This document shows positions 46,031 to 64,000 of a DNA stretch of 64,000 nucleotides, piece after piece (position 1 is the stretch's first letter; each line of letters starts with the position of its first letter). The notes beneath the pieces are model-generated. The model had not been told where the DNA came from and ran no database searches. It saw only the letters and a list, made by a program, of their open reading frames with translations. The DNA is from Ignavibacteria bacterium (lineage in GTDB: Bacteria; Bacteroidota; Ignavibacteria; Kapaibacteriales; UBA961): contig JADJXV010000007.1 in assembly GCA_016720145.1 (NCBI GenBank), forward strand, positions 103,426 through 167,425, in the 5' to 3' direction. The translations under genes and the position numbers were made by a program.

Positions 46031-46265
46031 ATGATTGGTGGTTCTGTTGCTTGCATTCCAAGCAATCGCTTGCGGGCACCCTTGCCGTCCAAGCAATCTG
46101 AAAAATGGCACGATGATACCGCTGATTTATTATGAGGAAAGATACTCTAAATCGTTAACTAGTAGCATTGACATGGTGTTCGCATCAAACTATAAGTGGA
46201 TTACTAGCTCTATAGGAGTGACCGGTTTGTAACAACGAAGTTCAATAGTATGCCCTTCGTGCCGT

Positions 46266-46332: not shown

Positions 46333-46399
46333 TTCTTGTGGGTATATTTGGTCGAGTAGAGAGCTAACCCACAGTCTTTAGATTCCACCGTAGTTCCGT

Positions 46400-48334
46400 G
46401 TCCGCATTTCTGCTTTTGTGCCTTAGGATGTGTATTTCTTGGATGTGCATTGCTCCCCCTCACAGAACCGTGCATGAGGATTTCCCTCACACGGCTCCTC
46501 AATTGTATTCCGCACTCAGTGCTTGTAAAAGCTTACGTATATCTTTGGTTCCGGAAGTGGATACTTCGATACATACTGCTTAAAACTCTCCCAAGTGTAG
46601 CTCTTCTTCTGACTACGACGGTTGAGCCACTTGTAGAGAAGTTTCTTTACTCGGTCTTTGTAATTCCATAATGATTTGCTGTTTTCACTTACACCATAAT
46701 AGTGATAGTGACCACGTACCATTTGGGATATACTTTCCCAAAGTTCTTGCAGCGTATAGGTATTCTTGTGTTCCTTCAGGAAGATGCTCACCTTACGGAT
46801 GCCAAGGCGGAAGCGGGACTTACTTGTCCGCCTACATACCTTGAATTTGCCTGCTCGGGTTTTACCGCAGTAATGGGTAAACCCAAGAAAGTCAAACGTG
46901 CCCGGATGTTTGTTCTCGTCGCTTGTGTCCGTATTACGACCAAATTTTACTACCGATGTCTTGGTTTCCGATAATTCAAGCTTGAACTTCGCAAGCCGTA
47001 ATCGCAAAGCTTCCAATATCAATGTGCAGTCCGATTCTCGTTCTACAAGTATGATAAAGTCGTTCTGCATACCGTACTATCGATGCATAGCCTTGAAGCT
47101 CTTTCTTCAATCCTTTCTCGAACCAAATGTCAAGCACATAATGAAGGTATATGTTTGCTAAGATTGGGCTAATGATGCCGCCTTGGGGCGTTCCCTTGTC
47201 GCTCGCTCTAAAGCTACCTTCATCCATGATTCCTGCTTTCAGAAATCTGATAATCAGTCGAATAAATTTCTTGTCTTTTATCCGATGTTCCAGAAACTGT
47301 ACTAACCAATCATGGTTAACATTGTCGAAAAACGATTTAATATCTGCATCGATAATATAGTTTACGCGCTTGAGGGTTATCTCTTGAAGTACCTGCTTCA
47401 ACGCATCGTGACAACCCATCTTTTCTCTAAAGCCATAGGATGAATCAATAAAACTTGGGTCGAATACTGCCGTTAGTATCGAGGATATTCCTTTCCTGGA
47501 CTATCTTGTCCTCTGTCGAGGGAATGCCCAATGCGCGTTCCTCCTCGTTCTTTCGGTATTTCCTTCTTACGCACGGCTTGCGGACGATACGACATGCTTT
47601 TCATCCGTTCTACCAATCCACTAAGATTCGCTTCAAGCGATTCTCCGTATTCTTCTACACTCACTCCGTCTATGCCAAGTGCCTTCTTACGGGGAAGTTC
47701 GGCATAGCACGTTCTAAAGTACTCCTCGTTCAGCAAGCTTGCCAATGAGCCAAACTTGTATTTGGGAGAGTCCTTCGAGACCTTGCTTAGTTGTATAAGT
47801 TTCGTTGCCGTATCTGATTGTGTTCTATGAGCCATATACGTTTCCTTTATACAATACATACAATTGTCAGCCCCTTCGCGCTACACCAGAATTGAATGCT
47901 TCTGCATGCATACCTCTGCTTTCGCAGAGCTTGACGCTACTATGGGCTAATCCGACTTCCATTATACCGTTACGCATTCTACCCTTTTCGGATTTGGTTG
48001 CGCTTATGCCAAATGGCAAGTATAGTGGATATCCCAAGTTCCTGATATATCCGTTTGATATCATACTGCGGACTTAGACCCCGATGATGACTACATGCTC
48101 AAGCCATACGAACATGTTGTTATTGCATTCCTGTTTGTAGAGACAGTCTGCCATCATAACCTGACCTATTTCGGGGCTCAATACCTTCACTTGCGTTGCG
48201 GTCTGATATCTCCCTCGTCGTAGCTTCACTGGGCTTGTTACCTCACACAGCGTACGATTGCGGTAGCGGGTGGGTGGCTCCCTTCCCGCGAAGGATTTGC
48301 ACCTTCTGAATATACCAAGCTTCGCTTGGCGCAC
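46400..48334 (-). mobile_element. Bacterial group II intron (about 1.9 kb) with a frameshifted intron-encoded reverse transcriptase/maturase; 3' boundary approximate
   Basis: The minus strand begins GTGCGCC at 48334. The reverse-transcriptase/maturase ORF is split into three pieces on the minus strand: 47859..47473 (RT0/1: ...LNEEYFRTCYAELPRKKALGIDGVSVEEYGESLEANLSGLVERMKSMSYRPQAVRKKEIPKERGGTR), 47419..46976 (RT2-5: GCHDALKQV...IDADIKSFFDNVNH...GTPQGGIISPILANIYL...YA) and 47070..46516 (DDFIILVE...maturase X: FLGFTHY...RGHYHYYGV). Domain V (GAGCCGTGTGAGGGAAATCCTCATGCACGGTTC) lies on the minus strand at about 46461-46493. Confidence 0.8.
46516..47859 (-). pseudogene. Group II intron reverse transcriptase/maturase (intron-encoded protein) disrupted by at least two frameshifts (near 47529 and near 47060)
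   Basis: Three consecutive ORFs in different frames together cover RT domains 0-7 and the X domain. The YADD motif is split between ORFs (…SIVRYA | DDFIILVE…). Confidence 0.7.
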
Positions 48335-49506: not shown

Positions 49507-49926
49507 CTAACGCCAACCAGCTATATTCAGATACTCTTTCGCAGTCATAACGGGAAGAGACGAATTTTTAAAATCTTTTTTATTCCTTGTAATAATTCCT
49601 TCTAAGCCAATTTCAAGTGCAGTATTATATTGAATTGCATCTTCAAAATCTTTGAAATCCGAGACTAAAGCAAGCTCTATTATTTTATTATCCAATGAAG
49701 CAACTTCTACCAACACTTTGAATTTTATAAGAATTTTTCTTGCTTCATCTAGCTTATGTTGTTTTGCTAGTAAATAATGAGCGTTCGCTAATGTAAGGGA
49801 CGAAACAAAAAGCTCGACTTGTTTGGCATCCGCAAGCGAGAACAATTCTTGAGCTTCCTCAAAAAAATCTTCACGGCGGGCAAGCAAATCAACTACAATA
49901 TTCGTATCAACTAAGAGCTTTTTCAT
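49507..49926 (-). CDS. vapC: PIN-domain protein (VapC-like type II toxin)
   Basis: MKKLLVDTNIVVDLL... carries an N-terminal acidic D, a conserved E and later D residues. It sits immediately downstream of a small gene with 1-nt overlap. Confidence 0.65.
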   Translation of the reverse strand: MKKLLVDTNIVVDLLARREDFFEEAQELFSLADAKQVELFVSSLTLANAHYLLAKQHKLDEARKILIKFKVLVEVASLDNKIIELALVSDFKDFEDAIQYNTALEIGLEGIITRNKKDFKNSSLPVMTAKEYLNIAGWR

Positions 49927-50168
49927 TACGAGTATTTCTCAGTAAGATAATCGTGGTATTCGTTTTTATCATCCAACTGTTCACTAGCAATTACACCTGT
50001 TAAACTCTGTACCAAAGGGCTGATTTTAATTTTTTTCTTCGGATTTGACGTGAGGGAAATGAGATAGCTTTCGATAAGTTTTGAAAGACTTACACGATTA
50101 TCTTTGGCAAAGTCTTTTGCTTGAACAAGGATATCTTTGTCAAGTTGCAATGTAAGATTTGTTTTCAT
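49926..50168 (-). CDS. Putative antitoxin (small DNA-binding protein) partner of the PIN-domain gene
   Basis: 80-aa protein MKTNLTLQLDKDILVQAKDFAKDNRVSLSKLIESYL... Its gene context matches a VapB-type antitoxin. Confidence 0.5.
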   Translation of the reverse strand: MKTNLTLQLDKDILVQAKDFAKDNRVSLSKLIESYLISLTSNPKKKIKISPLVQSLTGVIASEQLDDKNEYHDYLTEKYS

Positions 50169-51501: not shown

Positions 51502-51871
51502 AGATTCCTCTGGGGATGTGGATAGGGGGTAATACAAAAAAGTTCGCGTTGCAAGAACGCACACTACATGTCTGTTGAAGTTTAAAAAGCATTTGTTGAA
51601 TCGGAATAGTCTAACTGCGAAGGAGAACCTTGGCGGAGCATTTTTGGCTAAAACGAGGGTGTTAATTCGTTTTGCGGTTAGTTTTCATGCAAAGTTAGGA
51701 CGTTTTTCCCGATAAGCAAAGAAAAAAAATATAATACTGTATTTAAAACTCTGACACGGGTAGTTTTACGTTGAACTTCTTGGATAATTGAGCAAGTCCG
51801 GGCATAACATTTCTTGCTATTAATCACAGATGCTATGTAGTCCGAGGGTTCGAACCAAAAAAAACCTTTGG

Positions 51872-51960
51872 CAAAAACTGAAATTACCGTAAGTTATCAT
51901 TGCAAGATATCATTGTAAGTTATCATTGCAAGTTAGCGTTGTAAGTTATCATTGGATAAA
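51872..51960 (+). promoter_or_regulatory. Conserved upstream element AAACTGAAATTACCGTAAGTTATCATTG followed by five tandem 13-14-bp repeats (GTTATCATTG[CT]AA)
   Basis: ggcaaaaactgaaattaccgtaagttatcattgcaa-gatatcattgtaa-gttatcattgcaa-gttagcgttgtaa-gttatcattgg. A single-copy homologue (gggcagaaactgaaattactgtaagttaccattg) lies at 63775-63808, upstream of the next paralogue. Confidence 0.4.
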
Positions 51961-54900
51961 TTGTTAAGTCATATAACTATTTCAGCTCTTTTTTTCGAGA
52001 GGAGTTTCATGCGCTTTCTACTTCTTGTATTTTTTTTATCAGCAATTCAATGGGTCTCAGCCTCCGAAACCCCTCCACAACTGCGCAATTCAACGCCAAC
52101 ATTTACCGCCAATCGCGGGCAAATCATCAGCACCGATAATCTGCCTGTACCTGATATTCAATTTACCGCAGGGCAGTCCGGTAGCGTTCAGGCATTTATT
52201 ACTCCAACATGCGTGAGCTATGTATTTCCAAAAATTGAACTTAAACCCAAGTCAAATCTTCAAAATCTCACCAAAGAATTCCCCAAACGTCTTGATACGA
52301 TGCAAGCAATTATCACCGAACTCTACAGAATGGATATGGAGTTTATTGGTGCTAATCCTAATGCGCATATTTCGGGCACCGAACAAGCAAGCGACTATAC
52401 AAATTATTACTTAGCACATTGTCCTCAAGGAATTACCCATGTACCTTCCTTTGCTAAGCTCATTGTAAAGGACATCTATCCACAGATCGATGCAGTCTGG
52501 AAAACAACCGAACGAGGACTAAAATATGAGTTTATTGTACGCCCCGGCGGTGATTACCGACAGATTAAAATGCGCTATACCGGCGCTGATATTACGCAGA
52601 ATTCAGGACTTATCACCGCTACCACACCACTTGGAAGTATTCGGGATGAATCGCCGGTGTCATTTCAGAATGAAAATAAAATACCTACTCAATTTCATAA
52701 AAACAAAGATAGTTATGGCTTTACTGTCGCAGAATATGACCATAGTCAGTCAATTGTCATCGACCCGATGGTCGTCTGGGCGACGTATCAAAAAATTGGA
52801 CCGGATAACGATCCTTTAGTTTTGTTTACCGGACAAGGTCTTCAGGGAATGCGGCTTGATGCCAATGGTAATATTGTTATTGTTGGTGGTGTGAGTTCCA
52901 ATAATTTTCCTGCATCAACTGGAGCTTACAAAACCACATACACCCCCAGCGAAGCCCAAGGTGCGGGTCGTGATTGCTACCTTGCAAAATTCGATAATAA
53001 CGGTACTCGGCTCTGGGGTACGTATTATGGCGGAACCGGATATGAGTCGTCGAAGTCATTATATCTTCCAACCAATATTCTAACTATTGATGGAAACAAC
53101 GATATAGTATTTGTATCTTCCCAATATGTAGGACCATCCCAAGTTGTTAAATTTTCAGGCAATGGAGCGATCATTTGGACCTCGAATTATGGTACAGGCG
53201 AAGCATGGTCGGTCACCACCGATCCATCGAATAATGTGATTGTTGTTGGCTGGACACATTCGACTAATTTTCCTACATCTGGTTCTGTTTTTCAACCAAC
53301 CAATTCAAACTCTCAGGGTGTCGCTATTGTCACCAAATTTAATTCTTCCGGGAGTCGCCTTTGGGCTACGTACTTTGGTAATAATGTAGCAAGCGCTGAA
53401 TATACGTTTAATTATTTCAGTGGTGTAACAACTGATAATTCAGGTAATATATATACAGTCGGCGAAGCTTGGGGGAATGGCTTTCCGACGACAACCGGCA
53501 CATTTCAACCGGTTAATGATACCAATTTTTATAAAATTACCGTAGCCAGCTTGGACCCCATCGGACAGCGTAGATGGGCTACTTTTCATGGATGTGGAAT
53601 TGCCAATGATATAATTTGTGATAATAATAATCTCTATGTAGTAGGCACTACTCAAAGTAATACGCTCTTCGATGTGACCGTTGGCACCTATATTATAAAT
53701 GGTACAAGTGATGTCTGTATTTTTTCACTTGATAATACTACCGGCAACCGTAATAGCAGCTCATGGTCTCGTCTTTTCGGAGGAACAGATTTTCCAAGCG
53801 ATGTTTGGAAGTACGGTGTCGTTGATCACGGTCAAAGCATCGCTTTTGGTCCTGATAATGATATATGGGTTGGCGGTATAGCGGGGAATTCGAGTAATTT
53901 TCCTATAATCAATGTAGCGACCAATCCACCGTGGACGTATTCTATCCAACAAGGATTTAAAGGCGGTACGTCCGACGGATTCTTTGCTCAATTCAATAAA
54001 GCAACCGGTGAAGCTAAATATTCGACGCTTTTTGGATCGACCGCCAGTGATTATGGTGGCTTTGTCGTACCCTACGGCAGCTCTAGTTTGTTCTTCGGGA
54101 TTTGTTCAGGTGATGAAGGTTCGGGTACTTCTTTCCCTGTACCAACCAATCGGCGAATCGGTAATCCTGCCAGTGTCACCATCGCCAAAATCTGCACCTC
54201 CTACGGCACACTCACCGACGCAGGTTCGGATGCTGTGCTTTGTTCCGGTGATACTGTTCAAATAGGCGGTGTGCCTCTCACCGGAAGTTCGTATGTCTGG
54301 ACTTCTGCCGCTCCTGCTGACCTCTCCAGCTTGACTATTGCTAATCCTAAAGCATTCCCTACCAATACCACTGCTACTCAATACAAAGTAAAATACTTCC
54401 TCGAGCAAACGGACGCAAGCGGGTGCTATGGCAGAGATACCGTCGAACTAACTGTTCGCCCAAGTCCTGCCGTCACTCCTCTACCTCAAAACCCTCAATG
54501 CATCGGAAGCGTCGGTACCTACGCTTTAACCGGTATGTACACGCCACTCATTACCGACCGATTTACCTGGGAAGCAGGTGGCGGCACCATCGTCGGCAAT
54601 AATACCGAGCAAACAGCCAATATCCGATGGACTCGCATCGGGATAGACACCGTCTATCTGACCGTCACCAATAATCTGGGATGTGCCGCAAGGGTGAAAC
54701 TCCTCGTCGAAGTGACAGCGCTCCCCGTCGTCAACGCCGGCACTGATGCCGAAGTATGCGAAGGCAAAGGTATTCAACTTGCCGGTACTGCTTCCGGTGG
54801 TACCGGCACGCTCACCTACTCATGGGTGCCAACCGTCGGTATCTCCTCCAACACGATTCTCAATCCTATCGCTACGCCTAATCAACCTATTACCGATTAT

Positions 54901-56976
54901 ATTCTTACCGTTATCGATGCGCGAGGATGTGTGAATTATGATACTGTTCGTATCATCATGAACCCAAAACCAGTCGCCTTCGCCGGTGAAGACAAACAAA
55001 TCTGTATCGGCGAAAGCGCGCAACTATCTGCGTCAGTGACCAGCGGTATCGAACCGTATATGGCTACCTGGACTCCTACCACAGGACTCAGTAATCCGAA
55101 TATCTCCGATCCCGTCGCCAAGCCAACCGTCACTACTGACTACGCCTACTCCGTTACGGACGCCAAAGGATGCAAAAGCACCGATACCATACGCGTCGTC
55201 GTCTATCCTAAGCCGATTCTTTCCGCTATTCCACCTACTTTAGACTTCGGTAAATTAGACGGCTGTACGTCGTCCATCGAAAAAATAGACTCTATTGCCA
55301 ATACCGGTTCTGTTGAAGTGACCCTCACCGCTGCTACTCCCGATGATCCGTCCTTCAGTGTTAGTTCGGGATTCCCAATTAAGATTCCTGCAGGACAAAA
55401 AGCAGCGATTCGTATTCAGTATGCGCCTGTCTCTATCGGACAAAAAACAGGGAAAATCACCTTCGAAGGCACTCCGTGCGGGATTGTACTCCCCGTCAAT
55501 GTGATTGGCGAAAAACTCAATCTTGCTGTTAAAAATGTTCCGTCAGCCGTGGACTTCGGTCAAAGTATATCCTGCACCAATCGCTCCGCTGATACGCTGA
55601 TTACGATTACCAATACCGGCACCGATATTCTCACTCTCGTGCAACCTCTTATTCTACCGCCTTATACGACTTCTGCTACGTTCCCTATCACCATCAACGT
55701 CGGTGCTGATACCAAGATTCCGATTCGCTATGCGCCGATTGCTGATGGTAATTACGCGCAAACACTCCGCTTTCCCTTCTCGGCAGGCGCGTGTAAGGAT
55801 ACCATCAAAGTCGCTATGAATGGCGTGAGTGTTTCACACTCTGTAACGGCCAACCCTACACCGCTCCAATTCCCGGCTTTATCCGGTTGCGAATCGTTCC
55901 GCGATACGACGATAGTTCTTGAAAATACTAGTGTTGTGGATGTGAGAATTGACTCGGCTAGTGGCGGTGGGATGTTCAAAGTAACGGCGCCTGCCCTGCC
56001 GTTTACCCTCAAAGCAGGTGAAAAACGGGATGTGACGATACGGTTCGAACCGACCATCACCGGCGCAATTCAAAATGATCTGCAGTTCGTCTATAGCCCA
56101 TGCAGCAAACGTGTCACCATGCAATTCTCCGGCAATAAACAAGGTGCGAGCTTTGCTGTAGCTGACACACTCGATGCCGGTGAAATTATCGCTTGTGCCA
56201 AGCAATCGGCTACCGTCCAACTCACCATCGAAAATACGAGCAGTGGTGGGGCAAGTGGCGGAGTGACCGTCGTTACGCCCGGCGCGTCCATTACGACAAC
56301 TCTCAAAAATGGTGAAACCCTTCCGAATGGAACACCACAGAAATACGACGTGACCATCACACCACTTACCGACGGTACCTTCCTCGACTCCATGATGATT
56401 GTCTTTAATCCATGCGGTATTACCAAGATGGTCTATGTCAAGGGAAAACGTACCAATGTTGCGTTCAAAGCAGATATTGCAACGATCGATTTTGGGAAAA
56501 TTCCATCCGGAATGAATAAACCGCTTCCCGCGACTTTTACCAATACCGGTACGACGGCATTGACCGTGTCGAGTGTGCCGAATCTGACACTTCCATTCTC
56601 CATTCTCTCCATCACTCCACCACTACCTGCAATTCTCCAACCTAACGATAAATTGACCGTTACGATTCAATACACCGGTGTGACAGGTATTCAAGCAAGT
56701 AAACTATTTGCTGTGGCTACTTTGCCATGTATTGCTTCCGACAGCATCGCGCTTTCGGGTGAAGGCGAAGTAAGTGCATTGCCATCGTTTGCTTCTACTA
56801 AATTCCTGCAAACAGACAGTATTTGTATTGGTAAAGACACGCTCCTCTCTGTTCGTTTGGCGAATAATGGCGGTGTGAATTTACAGGTACAGCAAGCGCT
56901 TGCGACGGGTTCGGCGGACTTTACCGTGCTTGGTTTTGCGCCGCGATCGCTCGCTTCGGGGACAATATGGATGTGA
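51952..56976 (+). CDS. Giant T9SS-secreted surface protein (N-terminal FTANRGQ module, SBBP-like repeats, many Ig-like/choice-of-anchor-D-like domains). The C-terminal part continues in 56967..57782 after a frameshift
   Basis: The probable true start is the ATG at 52009 (MRFLLLVFFLSAIQWVSA). This gene ends ...LGFAPRSLASGTIWM*, where the paralogue reads ...LGFVPQTLASGNSMDVQVRYTPTSIG. That places a 1-nt indel near 56958-56970. Confidence 0.8.
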   Translation: MDKLLSHITISALFFERSFMRFLLLVFFLSAIQWVSASETPPQLRNSTPTFTANRGQIISTDNLPVPDIQFTAGQSGSVQAFITPTCVSYVFPKIELKPKSNLQNLTKEFPKRLDTMQAIITELYRMDMEFIGANPNAHISGTEQASDYTNYYLAHCPQGITHVPSFAKLIVKDIYPQIDAVWKTTERGLKYEFIVRPGGDYRQIKMRYTGADITQNSGLITATTPLGSIRDESPVSFQNENKIPTQFHKNKDSYGFTVAEYDHSQSIVIDPMVVWATYQKIGPDNDPLVLFTGQGLQGMRLDANGNIVIVGGVSSNNFPASTGAYKTTYTPSEAQGAGRDCYLAKFDNNGTRLWGTYYGGTGYESSKSLYLPTNILTIDGNNDIVFVSSQYVGPSQVVKFSGNGAIIWTSNYGTGEAWSVTTDPSNNVIVVGWTHSTNFPTSGSVFQPTNSNSQGVAIVTKFNSSGSRLWATYFGNNVASAEYTFNYFSGVTTDNSGNIYTVGEAWGNGFPTTTGTFQPVNDTNFYKITVASLDPIGQRRWATFHGCGIANDIICDNNNLYVVGTTQSNTLFDVTVGTYIINGTSDVCIFSLDNTTGNRNSSSWSRLFGGTDFPSDVWKYGVVDHGQSIAFGPDNDIWVGGIAGNSSNFPIINVATNPPWTYSIQQGFKGGTSDGFFAQFNKATGEAKYSTLFGSTASDYGGFVVPYGSSSLFFGICSGDEGSGTSFPVPTNRRIGNPASVTIAKICTSYGTLTDAGSDAVLCSGDTVQIGGVPLTGSSYVWTSAAPADLSSLTIANPKAFPTNTTATQYKVKYFLEQTDASGCYGRDTVELTVRPSPAVTPLPQNPQCIGSVGTYALTGMYTPLITDRFTWEAGGGTIVGNNTEQTANIRWTRIGIDTVYLTVTNNLGCAARVKLLVEVTALPVVNAGTDAEVCEGKGIQLAGTASGGTGTLTYSWVPTVGISSNTILNPIATPNQPITDYILTVIDARGCVNYDTVRIIMNPKPVAFAGEDKQICIGESAQLSASVTSGIEPYMATWTPTTGLSNPNISDPVAKPTVTTDYAYSVTDAKGCKSTDTIRVVVYPKPILSAIPPTLDFGKLDGCTSSIEKIDSIANTGSVEVTLTAATPDDPSFSVSSGFPIKIPAGQKAAIRIQYAPVSIGQKTGKITFEGTPCGIVLPVNVIGEKLNLAVKNVPSAVDFGQSISCTNRSADTLITITNTGTDILTLVQPLILPPYTTSATFPITINVGADTKIPIRYAPIADGNYAQTLRFPFSAGACKDTIKVAMNGVSVSHSVTANPTPLQFPALSGCESFRDTTIVLENTSVVDVRIDSASGGGMFKVTAPALPFTLKAGEKRDVTIRFEPTITGAIQNDLQFVYSPCSKRVTMQFSGNKQGASFAVADTLDAGEIIACAKQSATVQLTIENTSSGGASGGVTVVTPGASITTTLKNGETLPNGTPQKYDVTITPLTDGTFLDSMMIVFNPCGITKMVYVKGKRTNVAFKADIATIDFGKIPSGMNKPLPATFTNTGTTALTVSSVPNLTLPFSILSITPPLPAILQPNDKLTVTIQYTGVTGIQASKLFAVATLPCIASDSIALSGEGEVSALPSFASTKFLQTDSICIGKDTLLSVRLANNGGVNLQVQQALATGSADFTVLGFAPRSLASGTIWM

Positions 56977-57782
56977 AAGTGCGTTATTCGCCCTCAGTTA
57001 TTGGTCTAGCAACCGGTAAAATTGTCTGGGTGACCGATCTTCTCCGTGACTCCACTGACCTCTCAGGACTCGGTAAAAGCTGTGGATTTGTACCAATTGA
57101 CACAGCTAAAACAACCATCAGCATACAAAATATCGAAGCGAATACCGGCGATAAGGTGCAAGTAACACTCAAGCTTACAAGTGAGAATGGACTTGTAAAA
57201 TCAGGCGCAACAAACTTCAAGGCAAAAGTCGGCTTCAACCGAACCATTCTCCATATCACCGACCCGGCGATTATTTGCAACAGTGGTACTAATGCAGACC
57301 GATGTGAAGTTGAAATTACCGGCACACACCAAAGCAGCAGTGATATTCTCGCTGTCACACCGGCCGAAGCCACACTTGGCAATGCAGAACGTACTAACTT
57401 AGAACTCCTCTCATTTGAATGGCTTAACGGAACGGGTGCCGTGAACGTATCACGCGTAAACGGCGAACTCATCCTCACCGATATTTGCCGTGAAGGCGGA
57501 GTACGACTCTATCAACCAACACAAATCGTGAGCTTGAGTATGGTGCCCAATCCTGCAAGCGGAAATGCTGAAATCGAATATACCCTTCGCGAGGAATCTG
57601 CGGTAAAGGTCTCGCTCGTTGATGTGTTAGGTCGTGAAGTGATGATTATTGACGAGGCGGTCAGAGGTGCGGGGACGTATAGAAAGTATGTCGAACTCTC
57701 GCTTGCCGGTGATGGGGTGTATTATCTCAGATTGCAAGCACCGAATGTGACGAAGACGGTGAGGGTGAGTCTGGTAAAGTGA
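56967..57782 (+). CDS. C-terminal portion (Ig-like domain plus T9SS sorting domain) of the preceding giant gene, in a different frame
   Basis: MDVKVRYSPSVIGLATGKIVWVTDLL...SLVDVLGREVMIIDEAVRGAGTYRKYVELSLAGDGVYYLRLQAPNVTKTVRVSLVK is about 95% identical to the C-terminus of 58808..63745. The second half is a T9SS C-terminal domain. Confidence 0.75.
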   Translation: MDVKVRYSPSVIGLATGKIVWVTDLLRDSTDLSGLGKSCGFVPIDTAKTTISIQNIEANTGDKVQVTLKLTSENGLVKSGATNFKAKVGFNRTILHITDPAIICNSGTNADRCEVEITGTHQSSSDILAVTPAEATLGNAERTNLELLSFEWLNGTGAVNVSRVNGELILTDICREGGVRLYQPTQIVSLSMVPNPASGNAEIEYTLREESAVKVSLVDVLGREVMIIDEAVRGAGTYRKYVELSLAGDGVYYLRLQAPNVTKTVRVSLVK

Positions 57783-58073
57783 TGCTTATCAAGATGTTAC
57801 ATTTTATAGCCGGTATTTGATTTGTTTGCCAATACCATCGTATGTGCATTTCTTGGCAAGGTGTGGACGGCAACGGGTGACCGCAGGCGAACATTTGGAA
57901 TATAATGAACAGAAACCAATCCACTAGTGTCCACTAAAAATTTAGAGAAAATTGATTTAAGCAAAGTTCTTTGACATCATTACAATCTGATTTATAAAAT
58001 AGCTTATTAATTGGCGTTTTATCCAGCAACGAAATACTTAAAACCTGCAAAACTTCGTATGTTGATCTATTAA

Positions 58074-58775
58074 TCATAAGTTCTTTTCAATAATAGCAAC
58101 TAAGCAATATGATATTATGGCACAATAAATTTGAATTTTAACAGCATTCTCACTATTGCCCCAAAAGGATTTAATTTTTAGATGCTGTTTAATCCATTTA
58201 AAAAATAGTTCAACTTGCCAACGATTTTTATAAAGTAGTGTAATTTGCTCAGCCGTAAGTTCCATATTATTAGACAAATATGAAAACGTTTTGTCACTTT
58301 CTTTATCATAATAAATAACTTGGCGAATTTCATTAGGATAATCTTTAGACGCATAAAACCCTGTTAGTGTTCCTACTTGATCGCTTATTACTCCTGTGTT
58401 TTCATTGATTTTATTGAGCCGATTACATTTGAATTTAAGGTTTTTTTTTGCTCGAACAACAAAATATGCTGAGTGGTTACAAATCTTATTAAGTCTTTTA
58501 AAATCAATATATCCACGATCAAAAACATAATAAGCACCATACTCATAAGGAATAACATCCATTGCATTCATATCATTGACAGAGGCTTCAGTTATATGAA
58601 TGAAAGCTGGTATTTGAGTACAAATGTCATAGAGTGTATGAATCTTGATCCCGGCTTTAAATTTGCGAAATTTTGCCCACCATGTCAGATGTAGTGCTAT
58701 CACTTTGGCTTCTTTGCAAGCATTGTTTTTGTGCCCTTCGACTTCTTTTTTCTTTAGTGGCACTAGTGAAACCAA
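58074..58775 (-). mobile_element. N-terminally truncated IS4/IS5-superfamily (DDE_Tnp_1) transposase remnant
   Basis: ...WAKFRKFKAGIKIHTLYD...YYVFDRGYIDFKRL...YKNRWQVELFFKWIKQHLKIK carries the second D and the E of the DDE triad and the YxxRWxxE signature. The first-D region is missing. The reading frame is closed by a TAG that overlaps the start of the adjacent giant gene. Confidence 0.7.
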
Positions 58776-58807
58776 TCTATCTTTTTTACTATTACAGAGT
58801 GTGTGCT

Positions 58808-61800
58808 ATGCGCTTACTTTTTTACTATTTCGTTGCAATAGTTGTCGCCGTCACCAGTGCGGGAGCAGCTATACCGGCTAGTACGTATTCGTTGCAAAAA
58901 CAGCCCGGATACGTTGAAAATAAAGGACAGATTCTAGACCAGTTTAACAAGCCGAACACCTCGGTTCGATACCTGCTCAGCCGCCCCGGACTGAATATTC
59001 AACTCAAGGCAAATAGCTTTAGTTATGATAGTTATATCGAGAAAACCTTGCCGGTAAAAGACAAATCTACAGCCATCCATCAGCCGAAAGAGCAGCAGCA
59101 CGAGTCGTTCGAACAGCACTTTCATCGTGTGGATGTGGAACTCGTCGGCGCGAACCCTGCGCCACTCCTGCACGCAATCGGCGCATCGGATGATTATCAG
59201 AATTATTATACAACCGGACTTGGCGAGGAGGGTGTGACGAATGTTCGCAACTATGCGCGAATCGTATATGTTGATATTTATCCGCATATAGATTTGGAGT
59301 TTTTTCTGGGCTCGCAGGGTGAAGCCGAGTATCAGTTTATCATCCACCCGGGTGGTGATGCATCTGTTATCCGATTGCATTATAAAGGTGCTTCAAGTAC
59401 TTCGCTTACCGGTAATTTAATCGAACTCACACTCAGACATGGTAGTATTTCCGAACATATTCCCAAAAGCTATCTGGCTGAGAGCGGACGTGAACTCCGA
59501 GTGAAGTTTCAAAAAATTGAAATGGATATGTATGGCTATTCTGTGCCTAACTATGCGTTGGATCAGACACTTGTCATCGACCCTACACCTTCTTTGAAAT
59601 GGGGAACATATTTTGGTGGAAGTAAAAATGATGGTGGAAACTGTATTGCAACAGACCAAAATAATGGCATTTATATAGGCGGCTCCACTTTTAGCACTGC
59701 CTCAATAGCTACAGTCGGTGCACATCAAGTGGTATATGTTGGCGCATGTGATGTTTTTATCGCTGCTTTTACAAAAGATGGCTTACGTCGATGGAGCACA
59801 TATTATGGTGGATCTCAGCCTGATGCCATTGGCGGAATTGATGTAGATCCAAGTGGGAATATATTCATTGTCGGAACCACGGAAAGTGATAACGGAATTT
59901 CCACATCAGGCGCCTACCAAGTAGCCAAGCTAGGAAGCGATAATGCCTTTGTGGCTTCTTTTACGAATACAGGCGTACGGAGCTGGAGTACCTATTATGG
60001 CGGTAAAATTGGCGAAAGAGGTTCTTATGGTATTGACCTAACCATCGGTAAAAGTGGTAATGTACTCATTACGGGCTTGTCAACGAGTTCGGATGCGATA
60101 GCAACTGCCGGCACTCATCAGCAAACTAATGCCGGTAATAGCGACGCCTTCATCGCTTCTTTCTCCAATGTAGGGGTTAGGCAGTGGGGTACATTTTATG
60201 GTGGAGGGCTCAACGAACATTCCACCGGAATCACGACAGATAAGAATGGTAATGTCTATATTGCCGGTATAACAGCAAGTACCGGCGGAATTGTACTAAC
60301 AGGTAGTTCCCCCCATCAATCTTCTCTCAAGGGAAGCGAAGACGCCTTCATTGCAAAATTTACAAGCTCCGGCAATCTTCTCTGGAGCACATATTATGGT
60401 GGTGATGATGTTGATTATGGAGATGATATTAAAGTCGATACAACAGGCGCTGTATTTATAGTAGGAGGTACGAATAGCACAAATTTTATCTCAACAAACA
60501 ATGGATATCAGCCAACCTTTGGTGGAGCCAATGGATGTGACCAAAGTTGTACATCAATAGGATGGAGTATTGAGATGGGTCTAGTAAACAGTAGTACGGG
60601 TGCTGGAGATATTTTCTTGGCAAAATTTTCCGAAGTCGGTGCACTCATTTGGGGAACTTATTATGGTGGAAATGACTGTGAGAACGGGAGTTCTTTGGCA
60701 TTAGACAGACTTGGGAATGCGTATCTTATCGGTACTACTAATAGTTCATCATCAGTGTTCGCTTCGAGCACTGCATATCAGCAAAATAATAACGGTGAAT
60801 GTGAGACATTTATAGCGAAATTTTTATCGAATGGAATGCGTGATTGGTCAACCTATTATGGCGGAGAAGCTGGAGAATATGGCTTTGATATAGCAGTGGA
60901 TAATGATCTGAATGTATTTGCAACTGGATGGACGTCAAGTAAAAATAATATCGCTACTCCGGGAGCTCATCAAGTAGTGCTTAGTGAGAATTCGCTTATT
61001 GCTTATATCGATGCATTCATCACCCGGTGGGAACAGTGCAATGAACTCTCCATTTCAATTTCATCGAATAAGTCCTCCGCTTTTTGCTTAGATGACGGTA
61101 TGGGGGTCGAATATAGTCTGCCCTTCGCTCCTAATTCAACTTACGAATGGCAGAGCATACGTTTGGGGACAATCACCTCATTGCGCACAACTGATTCGAG
61201 TATTATGGTCAATTGGACAAAAACCGGTACTGACACTGTTCGCGTACGACAAACTTCAACGATTTCAGGATGTTACAAAGACACAATGTTCATTGTCACT
61301 ATCACACCTATTTTATCAATAAACCTCGGCGCTGATATTGTGACCTGTCTTGGCGATATTCCGACCATCGGCAAAATTGTTAGCGGTGGCACTGCTCCGT
61401 ATTCTTATTCATGGTCGCCCAAGACAGGAATTATTGGTTCGGACTCCACAGCACAAATCAATGTTTCTCCTACAATCACAACAACCTACACCGTATCGGT
61501 CACCGATAAAAATGGTTGTCAATCTCAGAATGGCATTCAAGTCACCGTACACCCAAAGCCATCTGTCTATGCCGGTGCAGACACGGTCATCTGTCCGGGT
61601 GAATCGATTATAATCGGAAATGTAGCCACAGGCACCACCGGAAGCTATCAATATCAATGGACTCCGTCAATAGGATTATCGTCCGATTATATAGCCCGTC
61701 CGACTGCAAAGCCACCGACGGATACCACTTATCGAGTCATCGTGACTGATAAAAACGGTTGCAAAGACACATCAGAAATTAAGATTCGACTCTCGAAATC

Positions 61801-63745
61801 TAGCATAAAAATTACACCCGTTTCACTGGTATTTCCCGAATTACTCGGTTGTGACCCTGCGAAAGATACCGTCATTACGCTCGAAAATCCAACTGCTCTT
61901 GATGTAGAAATCAGCGCAATTATCTCGACAGACCCTCAATTTAAAGTGTTGACTGCAATGCCATTACTCATTTCGGCAAATAACGGGAAACAGGTTAAAA
62001 TTCGTTATGAACCAAGCGCAAGCGGAACATCCAAAGCAATCTTAAAAGTAATAACCGAACCATGTAAAAGCGAGGTTCTATTTCCAATCAGCGGAAGTAA
62101 ACAAGGTGTAAGTTTCGCAGTTGCAGATACCCTCGATGCCGGCGAAATTATCACCTGCGCGAAGTCATCAGCCACCGTCCAACTCACCATCGAAAATACG
62201 AGTAGTGGCGGCGCAAGTGGCGGAGTGACCGTCGTTACTCCAGGCGCATCCATTACAACCACTCTCAAAAACGGTGAAACACTGCCGAATGGAACACCGC
62301 AGAAATACGACGTGACCATCACACCACTTACCGACGGTAATTTCCTCGACTCCATGATGATTGTCTTCAATCCATGCGGTATTACCAAGATGGTCTATGT
62401 CAAGGGAAAACGTACGAATGTTGCACTCAAAGCAGATATCACGAACCTCGATTTTGGCAAAATTCCATCCGGAACGAATAAACCGCTCCCCGCGACTTTT
62501 ACCAATACCGGTACAGCTGCTTTGACCGTGACAAGTGTGCCAAACCTGAACTCGCCATTCTCAATTCTCTCGGTTACTCCACCACTACCGGCAATTCTCC
62601 AACCTAACGATAAATTGACCGTTACGATTCAATACACCGGTACAACCGGTGTACTGACGGGTAAGGTCTTTGCCTTTGCGACACTTCCATGCGCCATTAG
62701 TGACAGCATCGCGCTTTCGGGTGAAGGCGAAGTCAGCGCGTTGCCATCGTTTTCCTCCACAAAATTCCTCATTACCGATAGTATTTGTATCGGTAAAGAC
62801 ACGCTGCTTACAGCACGTTTGGCGAATAATGGCGGTGTGAATTTACAGGTACAGCAAGCGCTTGCGACGGGTTCGGTGGATTTTACCGTGCTTGGTTTTG
62901 TTCCGCAAACACTTGCTTCCGGGAATTCTATGGATGTGCAGGTACGCTATACTCCGACATCTATCGGGCAAGCAAACGGAAAAGTCGTGTGGGTGACGGA
63001 TCTTCTGCGGGACTCCACCGACCTGTCGGGACTCGGCAAAAGCTGTGGAATTCTTCCCATTGACACCGCCAAAACAACCATCAGCATACAAAATATCGAA
63101 GCGAATACCGGCGATAAGGTGCAAGTAACCATTAAGCTTACAAGCGAGCAAGGACTCGCACAGTCGGGTGCGACGAATTTCAAAGCCAAGCTTGGTTTCA
63201 ACCGAACAATTCTCCATATCACCGAACCGGCGATTATCTGCAACAATGGTACTAATGCAGACCGATGTGAAGTGGAAATATCCGGCACGCGGCAAAGCGG
63301 AAGTGATATTCTCGCTGTCATTCCGGCTGAAGCTACGCTCGGCAATGCCGAACGTACTAACTTAGAACTCCTCTCATTTGAATGGCTTAACGGCACCGGT
63401 GTTGTGAATGTCTCGCGGATAAACGGCGAACTCATTCTCACCGATCTCTGCCGTGAGGGTGGAGTGCGGCTATATCTGCCAACGCAGACCGTCTCGCTGA
63501 GTGTGGTGCCCAATCCGGCAAGCGGAAACGCTGAAATTGAATATACACTTCGTGAGGAATCTGCGGTAAAGGTCTCGCTTGTTGATGTGTTAGGCAAAGA
63601 AGTGATGATAATTGACGAGGCGGTCAGACCTGCAGGGACGTATAGAAAATCTGTCGAACTCTCGCTTGCAGGTGATGGGGTGTATTATCTCAGGTTGCAA
63701 GCGCCGAATGTGACGAAGACGGTGAGGATGAATGTCGTAAAGTAA
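58808..63745 (+). CDS. Giant T9SS-secreted surface protein, paralogue of 51952..57782 (SBBP-like repeats, Ig-like/choice-of-anchor-D-like domains, T9SS C-terminal domain)
   Basis: Start at the ATG at 58808 (MRLLFYYFVAIVVAVTSAGA signal peptide). The ORF-track ORF begins at 58673 inside the IS remnant. YYGG..-type repeats, and a C-terminus nearly identical to paralogue 1 (...VYYLRLQAPNVTKTVRMNVVK). Confidence 0.85.
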   Translation: MRLLFYYFVAIVVAVTSAGAAIPASTYSLQKQPGYVENKGQILDQFNKPNTSVRYLLSRPGLNIQLKANSFSYDSYIEKTLPVKDKSTAIHQPKEQQHESFEQHFHRVDVELVGANPAPLLHAIGASDDYQNYYTTGLGEEGVTNVRNYARIVYVDIYPHIDLEFFLGSQGEAEYQFIIHPGGDASVIRLHYKGASSTSLTGNLIELTLRHGSISEHIPKSYLAESGRELRVKFQKIEMDMYGYSVPNYALDQTLVIDPTPSLKWGTYFGGSKNDGGNCIATDQNNGIYIGGSTFSTASIATVGAHQVVYVGACDVFIAAFTKDGLRRWSTYYGGSQPDAIGGIDVDPSGNIFIVGTTESDNGISTSGAYQVAKLGSDNAFVASFTNTGVRSWSTYYGGKIGERGSYGIDLTIGKSGNVLITGLSTSSDAIATAGTHQQTNAGNSDAFIASFSNVGVRQWGTFYGGGLNEHSTGITTDKNGNVYIAGITASTGGIVLTGSSPHQSSLKGSEDAFIAKFTSSGNLLWSTYYGGDDVDYGDDIKVDTTGAVFIVGGTNSTNFISTNNGYQPTFGGANGCDQSCTSIGWSIEMGLVNSSTGAGDIFLAKFSEVGALIWGTYYGGNDCENGSSLALDRLGNAYLIGTTNSSSSVFASSTAYQQNNNGECETFIAKFLSNGMRDWSTYYGGEAGEYGFDIAVDNDLNVFATGWTSSKNNIATPGAHQVVLSENSLIAYIDAFITRWEQCNELSISISSNKSSAFCLDDGMGVEYSLPFAPNSTYEWQSIRLGTITSLRTTDSSIMVNWTKTGTDTVRVRQTSTISGCYKDTMFIVTITPILSINLGADIVTCLGDIPTIGKIVSGGTAPYSYSWSPKTGIIGSDSTAQINVSPTITTTYTVSVTDKNGCQSQNGIQVTVHPKPSVYAGADTVICPGESIIIGNVATGTTGSYQYQWTPSIGLSSDYIARPTAKPPTDTTYRVIVTDKNGCKDTSEIKIRLSKSSIKITPVSLVFPELLGCDPAKDTVITLENPTALDVEISAIISTDPQFKVLTAMPLLISANNGKQVKIRYEPSASGTSKAILKVITEPCKSEVLFPISGSKQGVSFAVADTLDAGEIITCAKSSATVQLTIENTSSGGASGGVTVVTPGASITTTLKNGETLPNGTPQKYDVTITPLTDGNFLDSMMIVFNPCGITKMVYVKGKRTNVALKADITNLDFGKIPSGTNKPLPATFTNTGTAALTVTSVPNLNSPFSILSVTPPLPAILQPNDKLTVTIQYTGTTGVLTGKVFAFATLPCAISDSIALSGEGEVSALPSFSSTKFLITDSICIGKDTLLTARLANNGGVNLQVQQALATGSVDFTVLGFVPQTLASGNSMDVQVRYTPTSIGQANGKVVWVTDLLRDSTDLSGLGKSCGILPIDTAKTTISIQNIEANTGDKVQVTIKLTSEQGLAQSGATNFKAKLGFNRTILHITEPAIICNNGTNADRCEVEISGTRQSGSDILAVIPAEATLGNAERTNLELLSFEWLNGTGVVNVSRINGELILTDLCREGGVRLYLPTQTVSLSVVPNPASGNAEIEYTLREESAVKVSLVDVLGKEVMIIDEAVRPAGTYRKSVELSLAGDGVYYLRLQAPNVTKTVRMNVVK

Positions 63746-63862
63746 AAAATTCTCTAAAAATTAAAAATTCTTTGGGCAGAAACTGAAATTACTGTAAGTT
63801 ACCATTGATTAAAATGTTAAGTCAAAAACACATTACTATTTACATAACTTAAGGCAAGATTC

Positions 63863-64000
63863 ATGCGTTCTGTACTTCTACTTTTGTTTATTGCGTTTCA
63901 AAGTATATCTGCCCAAGAAAAACCGCCTCAGTATAGTACCCCATCTCCGACGTTCACTGCAAACCAAGGACAAATCATTAACACCAATAATGTATTAGTA
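63863..64000 (+). CDS. Start of a further paralogous T9SS surface-protein gene (3' partial)
   Basis: MRSVLLLLFIAFQSISAQEKPPQYSTPSPTFTANQGQIINTNNVLV. The signal peptide and FTANQGQ module match paralogue 1. Confidence 0.7.
   Translation, partial: MRSVLLLLFIAFQSISAQEKPPQYSTPSPTFTANQGQIINTNNVLV

What the first reader, a model, noticed from the sequence alone, without database searches (positions are those of the whole stretch)
56100..63745. About 1.65-kb near-identical direct repeat at the 3' ends of two adjacent giant paralogues, separated by an IS4-family remnant; paralogue 1 is frameshifted
Regions 56130-57782 and 62100-63745 encode C-termini that are about 95% identical, and the same antisense ORFs appear at 56091-56426 and 62005-62388. 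That pattern indicates recent gene conversion or duplication. Between the copies lies an N-terminally truncated DDE transposase (58074-58775) whose frame is terminated by a TAG overlapping the ATG of paralogue 2. The promoter of paralogue 2 is therefore IS-derived or remodelled. Paralogue 1 has a 1-nt indel at about 56960 that separates its T9SS tail from the body. A third paralogue starts at 63863. Together these form a dynamic contingency locus of surface proteins.
Basis: seen in the sequence. Interest (0 to 1): 0.6.

Follow-up and report, generated by a model that had tools for sequence, protein, structure and literature searches.

The report
Old shared tail in surface-protein genes
Two neighbouring giant secreted surface-protein genes of an uncultured Ignavibacteria genome share a 1.65-kb tail because one gene long ago received a copy of the other's 3' end; a dead insertion sequence and a single-base frameshift came later, and the locus is ordinary genome wear rather than a switching system.

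Summary
The repeat is real: 56127-57782 matches 62087-63745. It is 85% identical in DNA and 88% in protein, not about 95%, and dS is about 0.55, so it is not recent.

Comparison with related loci shows that paralogue 2 is a chimera. Its first 1093 residues belong to a different SBBP-rich clade. Its last 552 residues are a copy of the paralogue-1-type tail: three Ig-like domains, a beta-sandwich domain and the T9SS sorting domain. The copy arose after the split from the closest available genome (L013). Both copies then stayed under purifying selection (dN/dS 0.12-0.15).

The IS4-family element is not simply N-terminally truncated. It spans 57922-58768 on the minus strand, keeps both inverted repeats and has a 9-bp target duplication (AAACCAATC). 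It has lost about 0.5 kb internally and carries its own frameshift. It sits 30 nt upstream of the paralogue 2 start codon.

The paralogue 1 frameshift is a G5-to-G4 contraction at 56958-56961. The tail behind it shows no other damage, so the change is either very recent or a sequence error.

A third paralogue does start at 63863. I found no evidence for a contingency locus. This is a new example of a known kind, of low to moderate interest.

The parts
51858..51954 (+). Conserved promoter-like motif upstream of paralogue 1 (TTTGGCAAAAACTGAAATTACCGTAAGTTATCATTG). It is followed by a 26-nt tandem expansion at 51889-51954 that L013 lacks.
52009..56126 (+). Paralogue 1 body, 1372 codons: signal peptide, DUF7948, propeller-like region, PKD/Ig-like and choice-of-anchor D domains. 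It is 58% identical to P0242/P0243 and 73% to the L013 orthologue.
56127..57782 (+). Copy 1 of the shared 3' module (552 codons once one base is restored). As the sequence stands, the ORF stops at 56974-56976, and the last 271 codons, which include the T9SS sorting domain, lie in the -1 frame (ORF 56967-57782).
56958..56961 (+). G4 run at the frameshift site. The L013 orthologue has G5 here and stays in frame.
57783..57921 (+). Native intergenic DNA after paralogue 1. Its last 9 nt (57913-57921, AAACCAATC) are one copy of the target-site duplication. The stretch 57864-57921 has an inverted relative at 46033-46091.
57922..58768 (-). Defective IS4-family insertion sequence, 847 bp against about 1298 bp in intact copies. 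IRR is at 57922-57939. The stretch 57922-58682/58684 is 97.5% identical to reference IS positions 535-1298, with one A5-to-A4 indel at about 58087. Then comes about 55 nt of unmatched filler (58684-58738) and a diverged IRL at 58739-58768 (25 of 30 identical). The promoter and the first ~136 codons of the transposase are missing.
58769..58777 (+). Second copy of the 9-bp target-site duplication AAACCAATC.
58808..62086 (+). Paralogue 2 body, 1093 codons: signal peptide, DUF7948, SBBP beta-propeller repeats, Ig-like domains. Its closest relatives (36-40%) are a different clade (P0004, P0006-P0009).
62087..63745 (+). Copy 2 of the shared 3' module, intact. It comprises the end of one Ig-like domain, three Ig-like (ASH/choice-of-anchor D) domains, a beta-sandwich domain and a type A T9SS sorting domain.
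63763..63824 (+). Conserved promoter-like motif upstream of paralogue 3. The same motif lies upstream of P0248 and P0249 in related genomes.
63863..64000 (+). Start of paralogue 3 (paralogue-1-like N-terminus). It runs off the window.

Best explanation
This is a tandem array of giant adhesin-like surface-protein genes exported by the type IX secretion system, in an Ignavibacteria metagenome-assembled genome. Four separate events shaped it.

1. Module copy (old). The last 552 codons of the paralogue-1-type gene were copied onto the neighbouring, otherwise distantly related paralogue 2. This was a one-off 3'-end conversion or domain swap. It made paralogue 2 a chimera: an SBBP-propeller head of one clade on the Ig-like stalk and sorting domain of another. 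The junction lies a few residues before a domain boundary. Both copies were then kept by purifying selection.
2. IS insertion (later). A 1.3-kb IS4-family element inserted 30 nt upstream of the paralogue 2 start codon and made a 9-bp duplication.
3. IS decay. The element lost about 0.5 kb internally, including its promoter and the first ~136 codons of the transposase. It also acquired a frameshift, so it is dead.
4. Frameshift in paralogue 1 (most recent). A G5-to-G4 contraction detaches the sorting domain. If real, the product enters the periplasm but cannot be exported or anchored.

Shown: the repeat, the chimera and its donor lineage, the order of divergences, the IS anatomy, and the nature of the frameshift.

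Inferred: the recombination mechanism, the relative dating of the IS, the functional consequences, and whether the frameshift is real (I put that at about 55-60%).
For: REPEAT AND BOUNDARIES
- The repeat is shown.
- Its 5' edge is sharp: amino-acid identity jumps from about 35% to about 90% at 56127/62089.
- Similarity ends at the stop codons.

CHIMERA AND DIRECTION OF TRANSFER
- The paralogue 2 tail is 58% identical to the tails of paralogue-1-type proteins P0242 and P0243, the same as the paralogue 1 tail itself.
- The paralogue 2 body is closest to P0004 and P0006-P0009 (36-40%), whose own tails are only 26-33% identical to the module.

TIMING
- P1c versus P2c has JC distance 0.170. Each versus the L013 tail is 0.244 and 0.249.
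- dS is 0.52-0.60 within the pair, against 1.4-1.9 for comparable genes between this window and L013.
- Related loci L009, L012 and L013 have no paralogue-2-type gene, no IS and no homogenised tails.

SELECTION
- Codon-position identities are 91, 94 and 70%.
- dN/dS is 0.149 upstream and 0.115 downstream of the frameshift.

INSERTION SEQUENCE
- Intact relatives encode a 386-aa transposase and are about 1298 bp long, with 18-bp inverted repeats.
- The window copy has both inverted repeats and the duplication AAACCAATC at 57913-57921 and 58769-58777.
- G+C is 27-32% against 45-50% in the flanks.

FRAMESHIFT
- The window has G4 where L013 has G5.
- One restored base gives 1924 aa, matching the 1915-1948-aa intact relatives that carry the sorting domain.

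STRUCTURE
- The model (mean pLDDT 83.5) is a string of beta-sandwich domains ending in the sorting domain.
Against: - The recombination mechanism is unknown. DNA just upstream of the junction is only 40-54% identical, too low for ordinary homologous recombination. No homology remains downstream of the stop codons.
- Divergence along the repeat is mildly uneven: the longest identical run is 61 nt (permutation p = 0.004), and chi-square on third positions gives p = 0.016. Later short conversion tracts are therefore possible.
- Both frameshifts, G5 to G4 in paralogue 1 and A5 to A4 in the IS, are homopolymer contractions. That is also the typical signature of a sequencing error, and no reads are available.
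- The genome is a MAG, and no strain of the same species was found for comparison.
Confidence: 0.7

Rival explanations
1. The paralogue 1 frameshift is a sequencing or assembly error at a homopolymer. Paralogue 1 is really an intact 1924-aa T9SS cargo gene. The rest of the picture is unchanged.
For: - The change is a single-base contraction of a G run.
- The only other single-base indel checked against a close reference, in the IS, is also a homopolymer contraction.
- The 271-codon tail has no second lesion, and its dN/dS (0.115) is as low as upstream.
- The source is a MAG.
Against: - About 50 kb of other coding sequence in the window is intact despite more than 250 homopolymers of 5 or more bases.
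- The indels in the group II intron are not homopolymer contractions and come with 5% substitutions, so they are natural decay.
- The orthologue in the closest relative, L013, is broken in at least 4 places while its neighbours are intact. Loss of this gene therefore does occur in the lineage.
- The paralogue 1 promoter region also carries a lineage-specific 52-nt tandem expansion.
Confidence: 0.4
2. This is a contingency or phase-variable locus. The shared tails recombine repeatedly, and the G tract and promoter repeats switch genes on and off to vary the cell surface.
For: - The frameshift lies in a G run.
- There is a 26-nt tandem array in the paralogue 1 promoter region.
- Divergence along the repeat is mildly mosaic.
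- Recombination among adhesin domains of T9SS cargo is documented in Porphyromonas gingivalis (PMC5266723).
Against: - dS of about 0.55 means that no homogenisation has happened for a long time.
- G4/G5 is far shorter than known phase-variable tracts (own knowledge of Neisseria and Haemophilus contingency loci).
- There are no inverted repeats or invertase genes.
- Tandem pairs in relatives are only 50% identical, with no shared tails.
- No population data exist.
Confidence: 0.08
3. The pattern comes from a whole-gene tandem duplication of paralogue 1, followed by very fast divergence of the 5' two-thirds.
For: Both genes have the same overall architecture: DUF7948, propeller region, Ig-like domains and sorting domain.
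Against: - The paralogue 2 body groups with a separate clade at 36-40% identity, against 27% to paralogue-1-type proteins. Members of that clade have their own different tails.
- The identity step is abrupt, occurring within about 10 nt.
Confidence: 0.03
4. The adjacency is an assembly chimera: the contig joins two genomes or two loci through the repeated IS or the repeated tail.
For: The source is a MAG, and repeats and IS elements are classic sites of misjoining.
Against: - The 9-bp target duplication is identical on both sides of the IS (chance about 4e-6), so the flanks belong together.
- The two tails differ by 15%, too much to be collapsed or confused.
- The left flank is syntenic with L013, L009 and L012, and the upstream motif of paralogue 3 matches that of the second paralogue in relatives.
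Confidence: 0.04

Closest known systems
Domain rearrangement among T9SS cargo genes of Porphyromonas gingivalis (kgp, rgpA, hagA adhesin domains; PMC5266723)
   Same: In both cases large T9SS-exported surface proteins share long C-terminal adhesin or stalk modules through recombination between paralogues, which gives mosaic genes.
   Different: In this window there is one old transfer (85% identity), between adjacent genes of an environmental Ignavibacteria MAG. There is no evidence of repeated exchange or strain-level variants, and the domains are ASH/choice-of-anchor D Ig-like domains rather than haemagglutinin or cleaved-adhesin domains.
Interlocus gene conversion (concerted evolution) of tandem paralogues
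   Same: The tract is more similar between paralogues than between orthologues, it has a sharp boundary, and the genes are neighbours in direct orientation.
   Different: There has been no sign of continuing homogenisation since the event. The flanking homology needed for RecA-type conversion is not visible, so an illegitimate or domain-boundary recombination is equally possible.
IS insertion upstream of a gene that supplies or alters its promoter, as in IS activation of cfiA in Bacteroides fragilis (PMC9138018, PMC13509656)
   Same: An IS sits immediately upstream of the start codon (30 nt) in a member of the Bacteroidota-related FCB group. Its left end faces the gene.
   Different: The IS here is an internally deleted, dead copy. 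No outward promoter could be identified, there are no expression data, and the target is a surface-protein gene rather than a resistance gene.
IS4-family insertion sequences with a DUF4372 + DDE_Tnp_1 transposase (NCBIfam NF033592)
   Same: The transposase fragment scores above the family cut-off. The element has 18-bp terminal inverted repeats and a 9-bp target duplication.
   Different: It is 847 bp instead of about 1298 bp. It lacks the 5' third of the gene, is frameshifted, and is therefore non-autonomous.

Membership tests
IS4-family insertion sequence | DDE transposase that matches an IS4 family model above the curated cut-off | tested here: met
   NF033592 scores 195.4 bits against a cut-off of 115. 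PF01609 matches at E = 8.6e-30. The fragment is 97% identical to residues 132-339 of the 386-aa P0121.
IS4-family insertion sequence | Terminal inverted repeats and a direct target-site duplication | tested here: met
   The inverted repeat is CACTAGTGTCCACTAAAA, present at 57922-57939 and, diverged, at 58739-58768. The 9-bp duplication AAACCAATC flanks both ends.
IS4-family insertion sequence | Complete transposase gene, meaning an autonomous element | tested here: not met
   The first ~136 codons and the promoter are deleted, and an A5-to-A4 frameshift removes the last 47 codons.
Type A T9SS cargo protein | C-terminal sorting domain (Por_Secre_tail / TIGR04183) above the cut-off | tested here: met
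   Paralogue 2 scores 34.3 bits on PF18962 (cut-off 27) and 32.4 bits on TIGR04183 (cut-off 23). In paralogue 1 the domain scores 32.6 bits but lies in the -1 frame, detached from the body.
Type A T9SS cargo protein | N-terminal Sec signal peptide, and T9SS machinery present in the genome | not tested
   Hydrophobic N-termini are visible (MRFLLLVFFLSAIQWVSAS and MRLLFYYFVAIVVAVTSAGA). No signal-peptide predictor was run, and the T9SS genes lie outside the window.
Interlocus gene conversion / module transfer | The tract is closer between paralogues than to the orthologue in the nearest genome | tested here: met
   JC distance is 0.170 between paralogues, against 0.244 and 0.249 to L013.
Interlocus gene conversion / module transfer | The event is recent or recurrent (near-identity, several tracts) | tested here: not met
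   DNA identity is 85% and dS is 0.52-0.60. Unevenness along the tract is only mild.
Contingency (phase-variable) locus | Hypermutable simple-sequence tract in the coding region or promoter | tested here: not met
   Only a G4/G5 run is present at the frameshift. Tandem Repeats Finder found no simple-sequence arrays in the genes. The 26-nt promoter tandem (2.5 copies) is not a classical tract.
Contingency (phase-variable) locus | On/off variants within a population | not testable with these tools
   No reads and no same-species contigs are available. The 90% clusters of both proteins each hold one sequence from one contig. The exact-sequence look-ups found nothing, and the scan of representative genomes found no relative of the module.
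IS-supplied promoter (cfiA type) | IS immediately upstream of the gene, with an outward-reading promoter | tested here: inconclusive
   The position criterion is met: the IS ends 39 nt, and the duplication 30 nt, before the ATG. Sigma-70-type matches are not above background. A Bacteroidota-type scan gives only a weak hybrid candidate, TTTA-N21-TATCTTTT at 58753-58785, against a background of 1 hit per kb.

The most novel reading that the evidence does not exclude
The shared stalk-plus-sorting module might act as a recombination handle that lets this lineage move different binding heads onto one anchoring stalk. The G-run frameshift and the expandable 26-nt promoter repeat of paralogue 1 might be reversible switches. 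Together these would form a head-swapping, phase-variable adhesin array in an environmental Ignavibacteria lineage.
Probability: 0.06. Interest if true: 0.55.

Novelty: new member of a known kind. Interest (0 to 1): 0.25.

Why it matters
It gives a clean, datable example of domain-level mosaicism in T9SS cargo genes outside the well-studied oral and gut Bacteroidota. A 552-residue stalk and sorting module was transplanted between distantly related heads and then conserved. That suggests the stalk and sorting part is interchangeable while the heads carry specificity.

For annotation, the deposited 1655-aa protein for paralogue 1 is a truncated product. The transposase is a dead relic of an IS with intact ends. 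Neither point changes current understanding of these systems.

Tried and rejected
- Exact-sequence look-ups of the window's proteins in public assemblies found nothing.
- A scan of GTDB representative genomes with the shared module found no relative, so no same-species comparison was possible.
- A PDB sequence search with the module gave no hit. The fold search returned only generic tandem Ig/ASH arrays.
- Rfam found no RNA element in 44-64 kb apart from the group II intron.
- No intrinsic terminator lies between paralogues 1 and 2, and sigma-70-like sites are not above background.
- My own Bacteroidota-type promoter scan did not recover even the conserved upstream motif, so it cannot settle the promoter question.
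- Folding the small repeated intergenic element showed no significant structure.
- Programmed -1 frameshifting was considered and rejected. The overlap zone 56868-56976 has no X XXY YYZ slippery site around the G run (read directly from the sequence).
- I first took the IS for a simple 5' truncation. I rejected that once the left inverted repeat and the target duplication were found.
Full report
OBSERVATION

A BLASTN comparison of 51-58 kb against 58-64 kb gives one long match: 56130-57780 with 62092-63743, 1656 columns, 85.0% identity, 5 gap openings. The only other match is a 45-nt stretch, 51859-51902 with 63763-63807. The repeat is therefore real and far beyond chance, but it is 85% identical, not about 95%.

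The two large ORFs are 51952-56976 and 58673-63745. An 816-nt ORF (56967-57782) follows the first in another frame. The likely true starts are ATG 52009 and ATG 58808. These match the deposited proteins P0241 (1655 aa) and P0001 (1645 aa), both from one 279,923-bp contig of an Ignavibacteria MAG.

Aligning the two copies shows one missing base in copy 1. Restoring it gives a single 1924-aa ORF. Its last 552 residues align without gaps to the last 552 of paralogue 2 at 88% identity.

WHAT THE GENES ARE

Both proteins have an N-terminal hydrophobic leader and a DUF7948 domain. These are followed by an SBBP or propeller-like region, PKD and Ig-like domains of the ASH/HYDIN/choice-of-anchor D kind, and a type A T9SS sorting domain.

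In paralogue 1 the sorting domain lies only in the detached tail ORF.

An AlphaFold model of paralogue 2 residues 985-1645 (mean pLDDT 83.5) is a string of beta-sandwich domains followed by the sorting domain. Its structural neighbours are generic tandem ASH/Ig arrays.

The repeat begins at model residue 110, inside the last strand of one Ig-like domain and a few residues before the next domain. The module therefore consists of three Ig-like domains, one larger beta-sandwich domain and the sorting domain.

THE REPEAT IS AN OLD ONE-WAY TRANSFER THAT MADE PARALOGUE 2 A CHIMERA

- Boundaries. Amino-acid identity jumps from about 35% to about 90% within a few codons at 56127/62089. Similarity ends at the stop codons.
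- Donor lineage. The paralogue 2 tail is 58% identical to the tails of paralogue-1-type proteins from other genomes (P0242, P0243 and others), exactly like the paralogue 1 tail itself. The paralogue 2 body is closest (36-40%) to another clade (P0004, P0006-P0009), whose tails are only 26-33% identical to the module. The donor was therefore the paralogue 1 lineage.
- Age. At the DNA level the two window tails (JC 0.170) are sisters relative to the tail of the closest available genome, L013 (JC 0.244 and 0.249). The copy was thus made after that split. It is still old: dS is 0.52-0.60 and third-position identity is 70%. For comparison, dS between the window and L013 is 0.43-0.60 for Rho and Mdh, and 1.4-1.9 for DnaG, another DUF7948 gene and the paralogue 1 body.
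- Selection. Both copies have been under purifying selection, with dN/dS of 0.149 and 0.115.
- Unevenness. Divergence is slightly uneven along the tract: the longest identical run is 61 nt (p = 0.004), and chi-square on third positions gives p = 0.016. Some later short conversion is possible but not required.

COMPARATIVE CONTEXT

Three related loci keep the same neighbourhood, with Mdh and Rho on the minus strand followed by a paralogue-1-type gene.

- L009 and L012 carry intact 1937-aa and 1946-aa genes, followed by a second paralogue of 1819 aa and 1809 aa.
- These pairs are about 50% identical along most of their length and have no homogenised tail.
- None of the three loci has a paralogue-2-type gene or the IS.
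- A conserved upstream motif (TTTGGGCA.AAAC.GAAATT.C.GTAAGTTA) precedes paralogues 1 and 3 in the window and P0248 and P0249 in the relatives. Paralogue 3 is therefore the positional counterpart of the second paralogue in those relatives.
- L013 is the closest genome, at 75-90% DNA identity. Its paralogue 1 orthologue is broken into at least four ORFs while its neighbours are intact.

THE INSERTION SEQUENCE

- Family. The minus-strand ORF 58074-58775 matches the IS4 family model above its cut-off. It is 97% identical to residues 132-339 of a 386-aa transposase, P0121.
- Reference copies. Eight public copies of that IS are 99.8-100% identical to each other and define an element of about 1298 bp with 18-bp inverted repeats.
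- Window copy. The window matches reference IS positions 535-1298 at 97.5% identity with one indel. That indel is an A5-to-A4 contraction.
- Both ends present. The left inverted repeat is also there, diverged (25 of 30 identical), at 58739-58768. The 9-bp sequence AAACCAATC flanks both ends, at 57913-57921 and 58769-58777.
- Interpretation. This was a normal insertion into the intergenic region between paralogues 1 and 2, 30 nt before the ATG. An internal deletion of about 0.5 kb followed, leaving about 55 nt of unmatched filler.
- Origin and age. Its G+C is 27-32% against 45-50% around it. Its nearest relatives in representative genomes are Bacteroidota MAGs at 72% identity or less. Its 2.5% divergence from active copies suggests, by inference, that it arrived well after the module transfer.
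It lies outside the IS and has no significance.

PROMOTER OF PARALOGUE 2

The IS separates paralogue 2 from all but 30 nt of its original upstream DNA, so remodelling is plausible. I could not show a promoter.

- No terminator lies between the genes, and sigma-70-type matches are not above background.
- A Bacteroidota-type scan gives only a weak hybrid candidate at 58753-58785, against a background of one hit per kb.
- The upstream region reconstructed without the IS aligns only weakly with the conserved motif.

THE FRAMESHIFT

At the site, L013 reads GCTTCGGGGGACAAT and stays in frame. The window reads GCTTCGGGGACAAT. The lesion is a G5-to-G4 contraction at 56958-56961.

Points that favour a real mutation:
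- The rest of the window's coding sequence is intact.
- The group II intron's indels are not homopolymer contractions and come with 5% substitutions.
- The L013 orthologue is clearly decayed.
- The paralogue 1 promoter region has a lineage-specific 52-nt tandem expansion.

Points that favour an error:
- The lesion is of the homopolymer type.
- The IS indel is of the same type.
- The tail is otherwise undamaged and equally constrained.
- The genome is a MAG.

I put the chance that the frameshift is real at about 55-60%. If it is real, it is very recent. No slippery site for programmed frameshifting is present.

VERDICT

The locus records an old module transplant between neighbouring T9SS cargo genes, a later IS insertion that decayed, and a very late or artefactual frameshift.

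Nothing indicates an active switching system. The closest analogues are the domain rearrangements of P. gingivalis gingipain and HagA genes (PMC5266723), ordinary interlocus gene conversion, and IS insertions upstream of genes in Bacteroides (PMC9138018).

Interest is low to moderate.

Noticed in passing
window 46351-48299 (-): A complete group II intron (Rfam RF02005 and RF00029) lies between dnaG and mdh. Its reverse transcriptase/maturase is split into three ORFs by a 2-nt deletion and two 1-nt insertions. Close relatives (L094 at 95% and L095 at 89% DNA identity) have one intact ORF of at least 454 and 476 aa respectively. L013 has no intron at this position.
   Followed up: yes
window 57864-57921 and 46033-46091; L013 6277-6348: A 60-75-nt intergenic element occurs in inverted orientation just after the stop codons of paralogue 1 and of dnaG, and is conserved in L013. 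The IS inserted exactly at its end. It shows no significant fold and its function is unknown.
   Followed up: partly
window 51889-51954: A 26-nt tandem array (2.5 copies) triplicates the GTAAGTTATCATTG box of the conserved promoter-like motif upstream of paralogue 1. L013 has a single copy, so this is a 52-nt lineage-specific expansion in a likely regulatory region.
   Followed up: partly
L013 10001-15784: The paralogue 1 orthologue in the closest relative genome is broken into ORFs of 1082, 353, 205 and 198 aa by several frame changes, while the flanking genes are intact. This looks like independent decay of the same gene.
   Followed up: partly
window 49507-50168 (-): A PIN-domain toxin and DUF6364 antitoxin-like pair lies between rho and mdh. 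L013 keeps only the DUF6364 gene, and L009 and L012 have neither.
   Followed up: partly
L009 15847-17871, L013 15817-17841, L012 7854-9920; window 26171-28144 (-): In relatives a 674-688-aa OmpA-like beta-barrel gene sits next to the paralogue-1-type gene: 33 nt downstream in L009 and L013, and about 80 nt upstream in L012. It could be an anchoring partner. In the window that position holds the IS and paralogue 2, and a similar OmpA-like gene lies 25 kb away.
   Followed up: no
window 1840-5379 (-) and 5661-11300 (-): There are two further giant proteins, each with an N-terminal ice-binding-like domain followed by up to 13 ASH/HYDIN Ig-like repeats. Another DUF7948/SBBP T9SS protein at 40595-43933 is conserved in L013. 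The region is rich in surface-protein genes.
   Followed up: no
window 59768-60864 (+): Six copies of a 44-nt conserved core, spaced 192-267 nt apart inside paralogue 2, correspond to the SBBP beta-propeller blades (...W.TYYGG). This is ordinary internal protein repeats.
   Followed up: no
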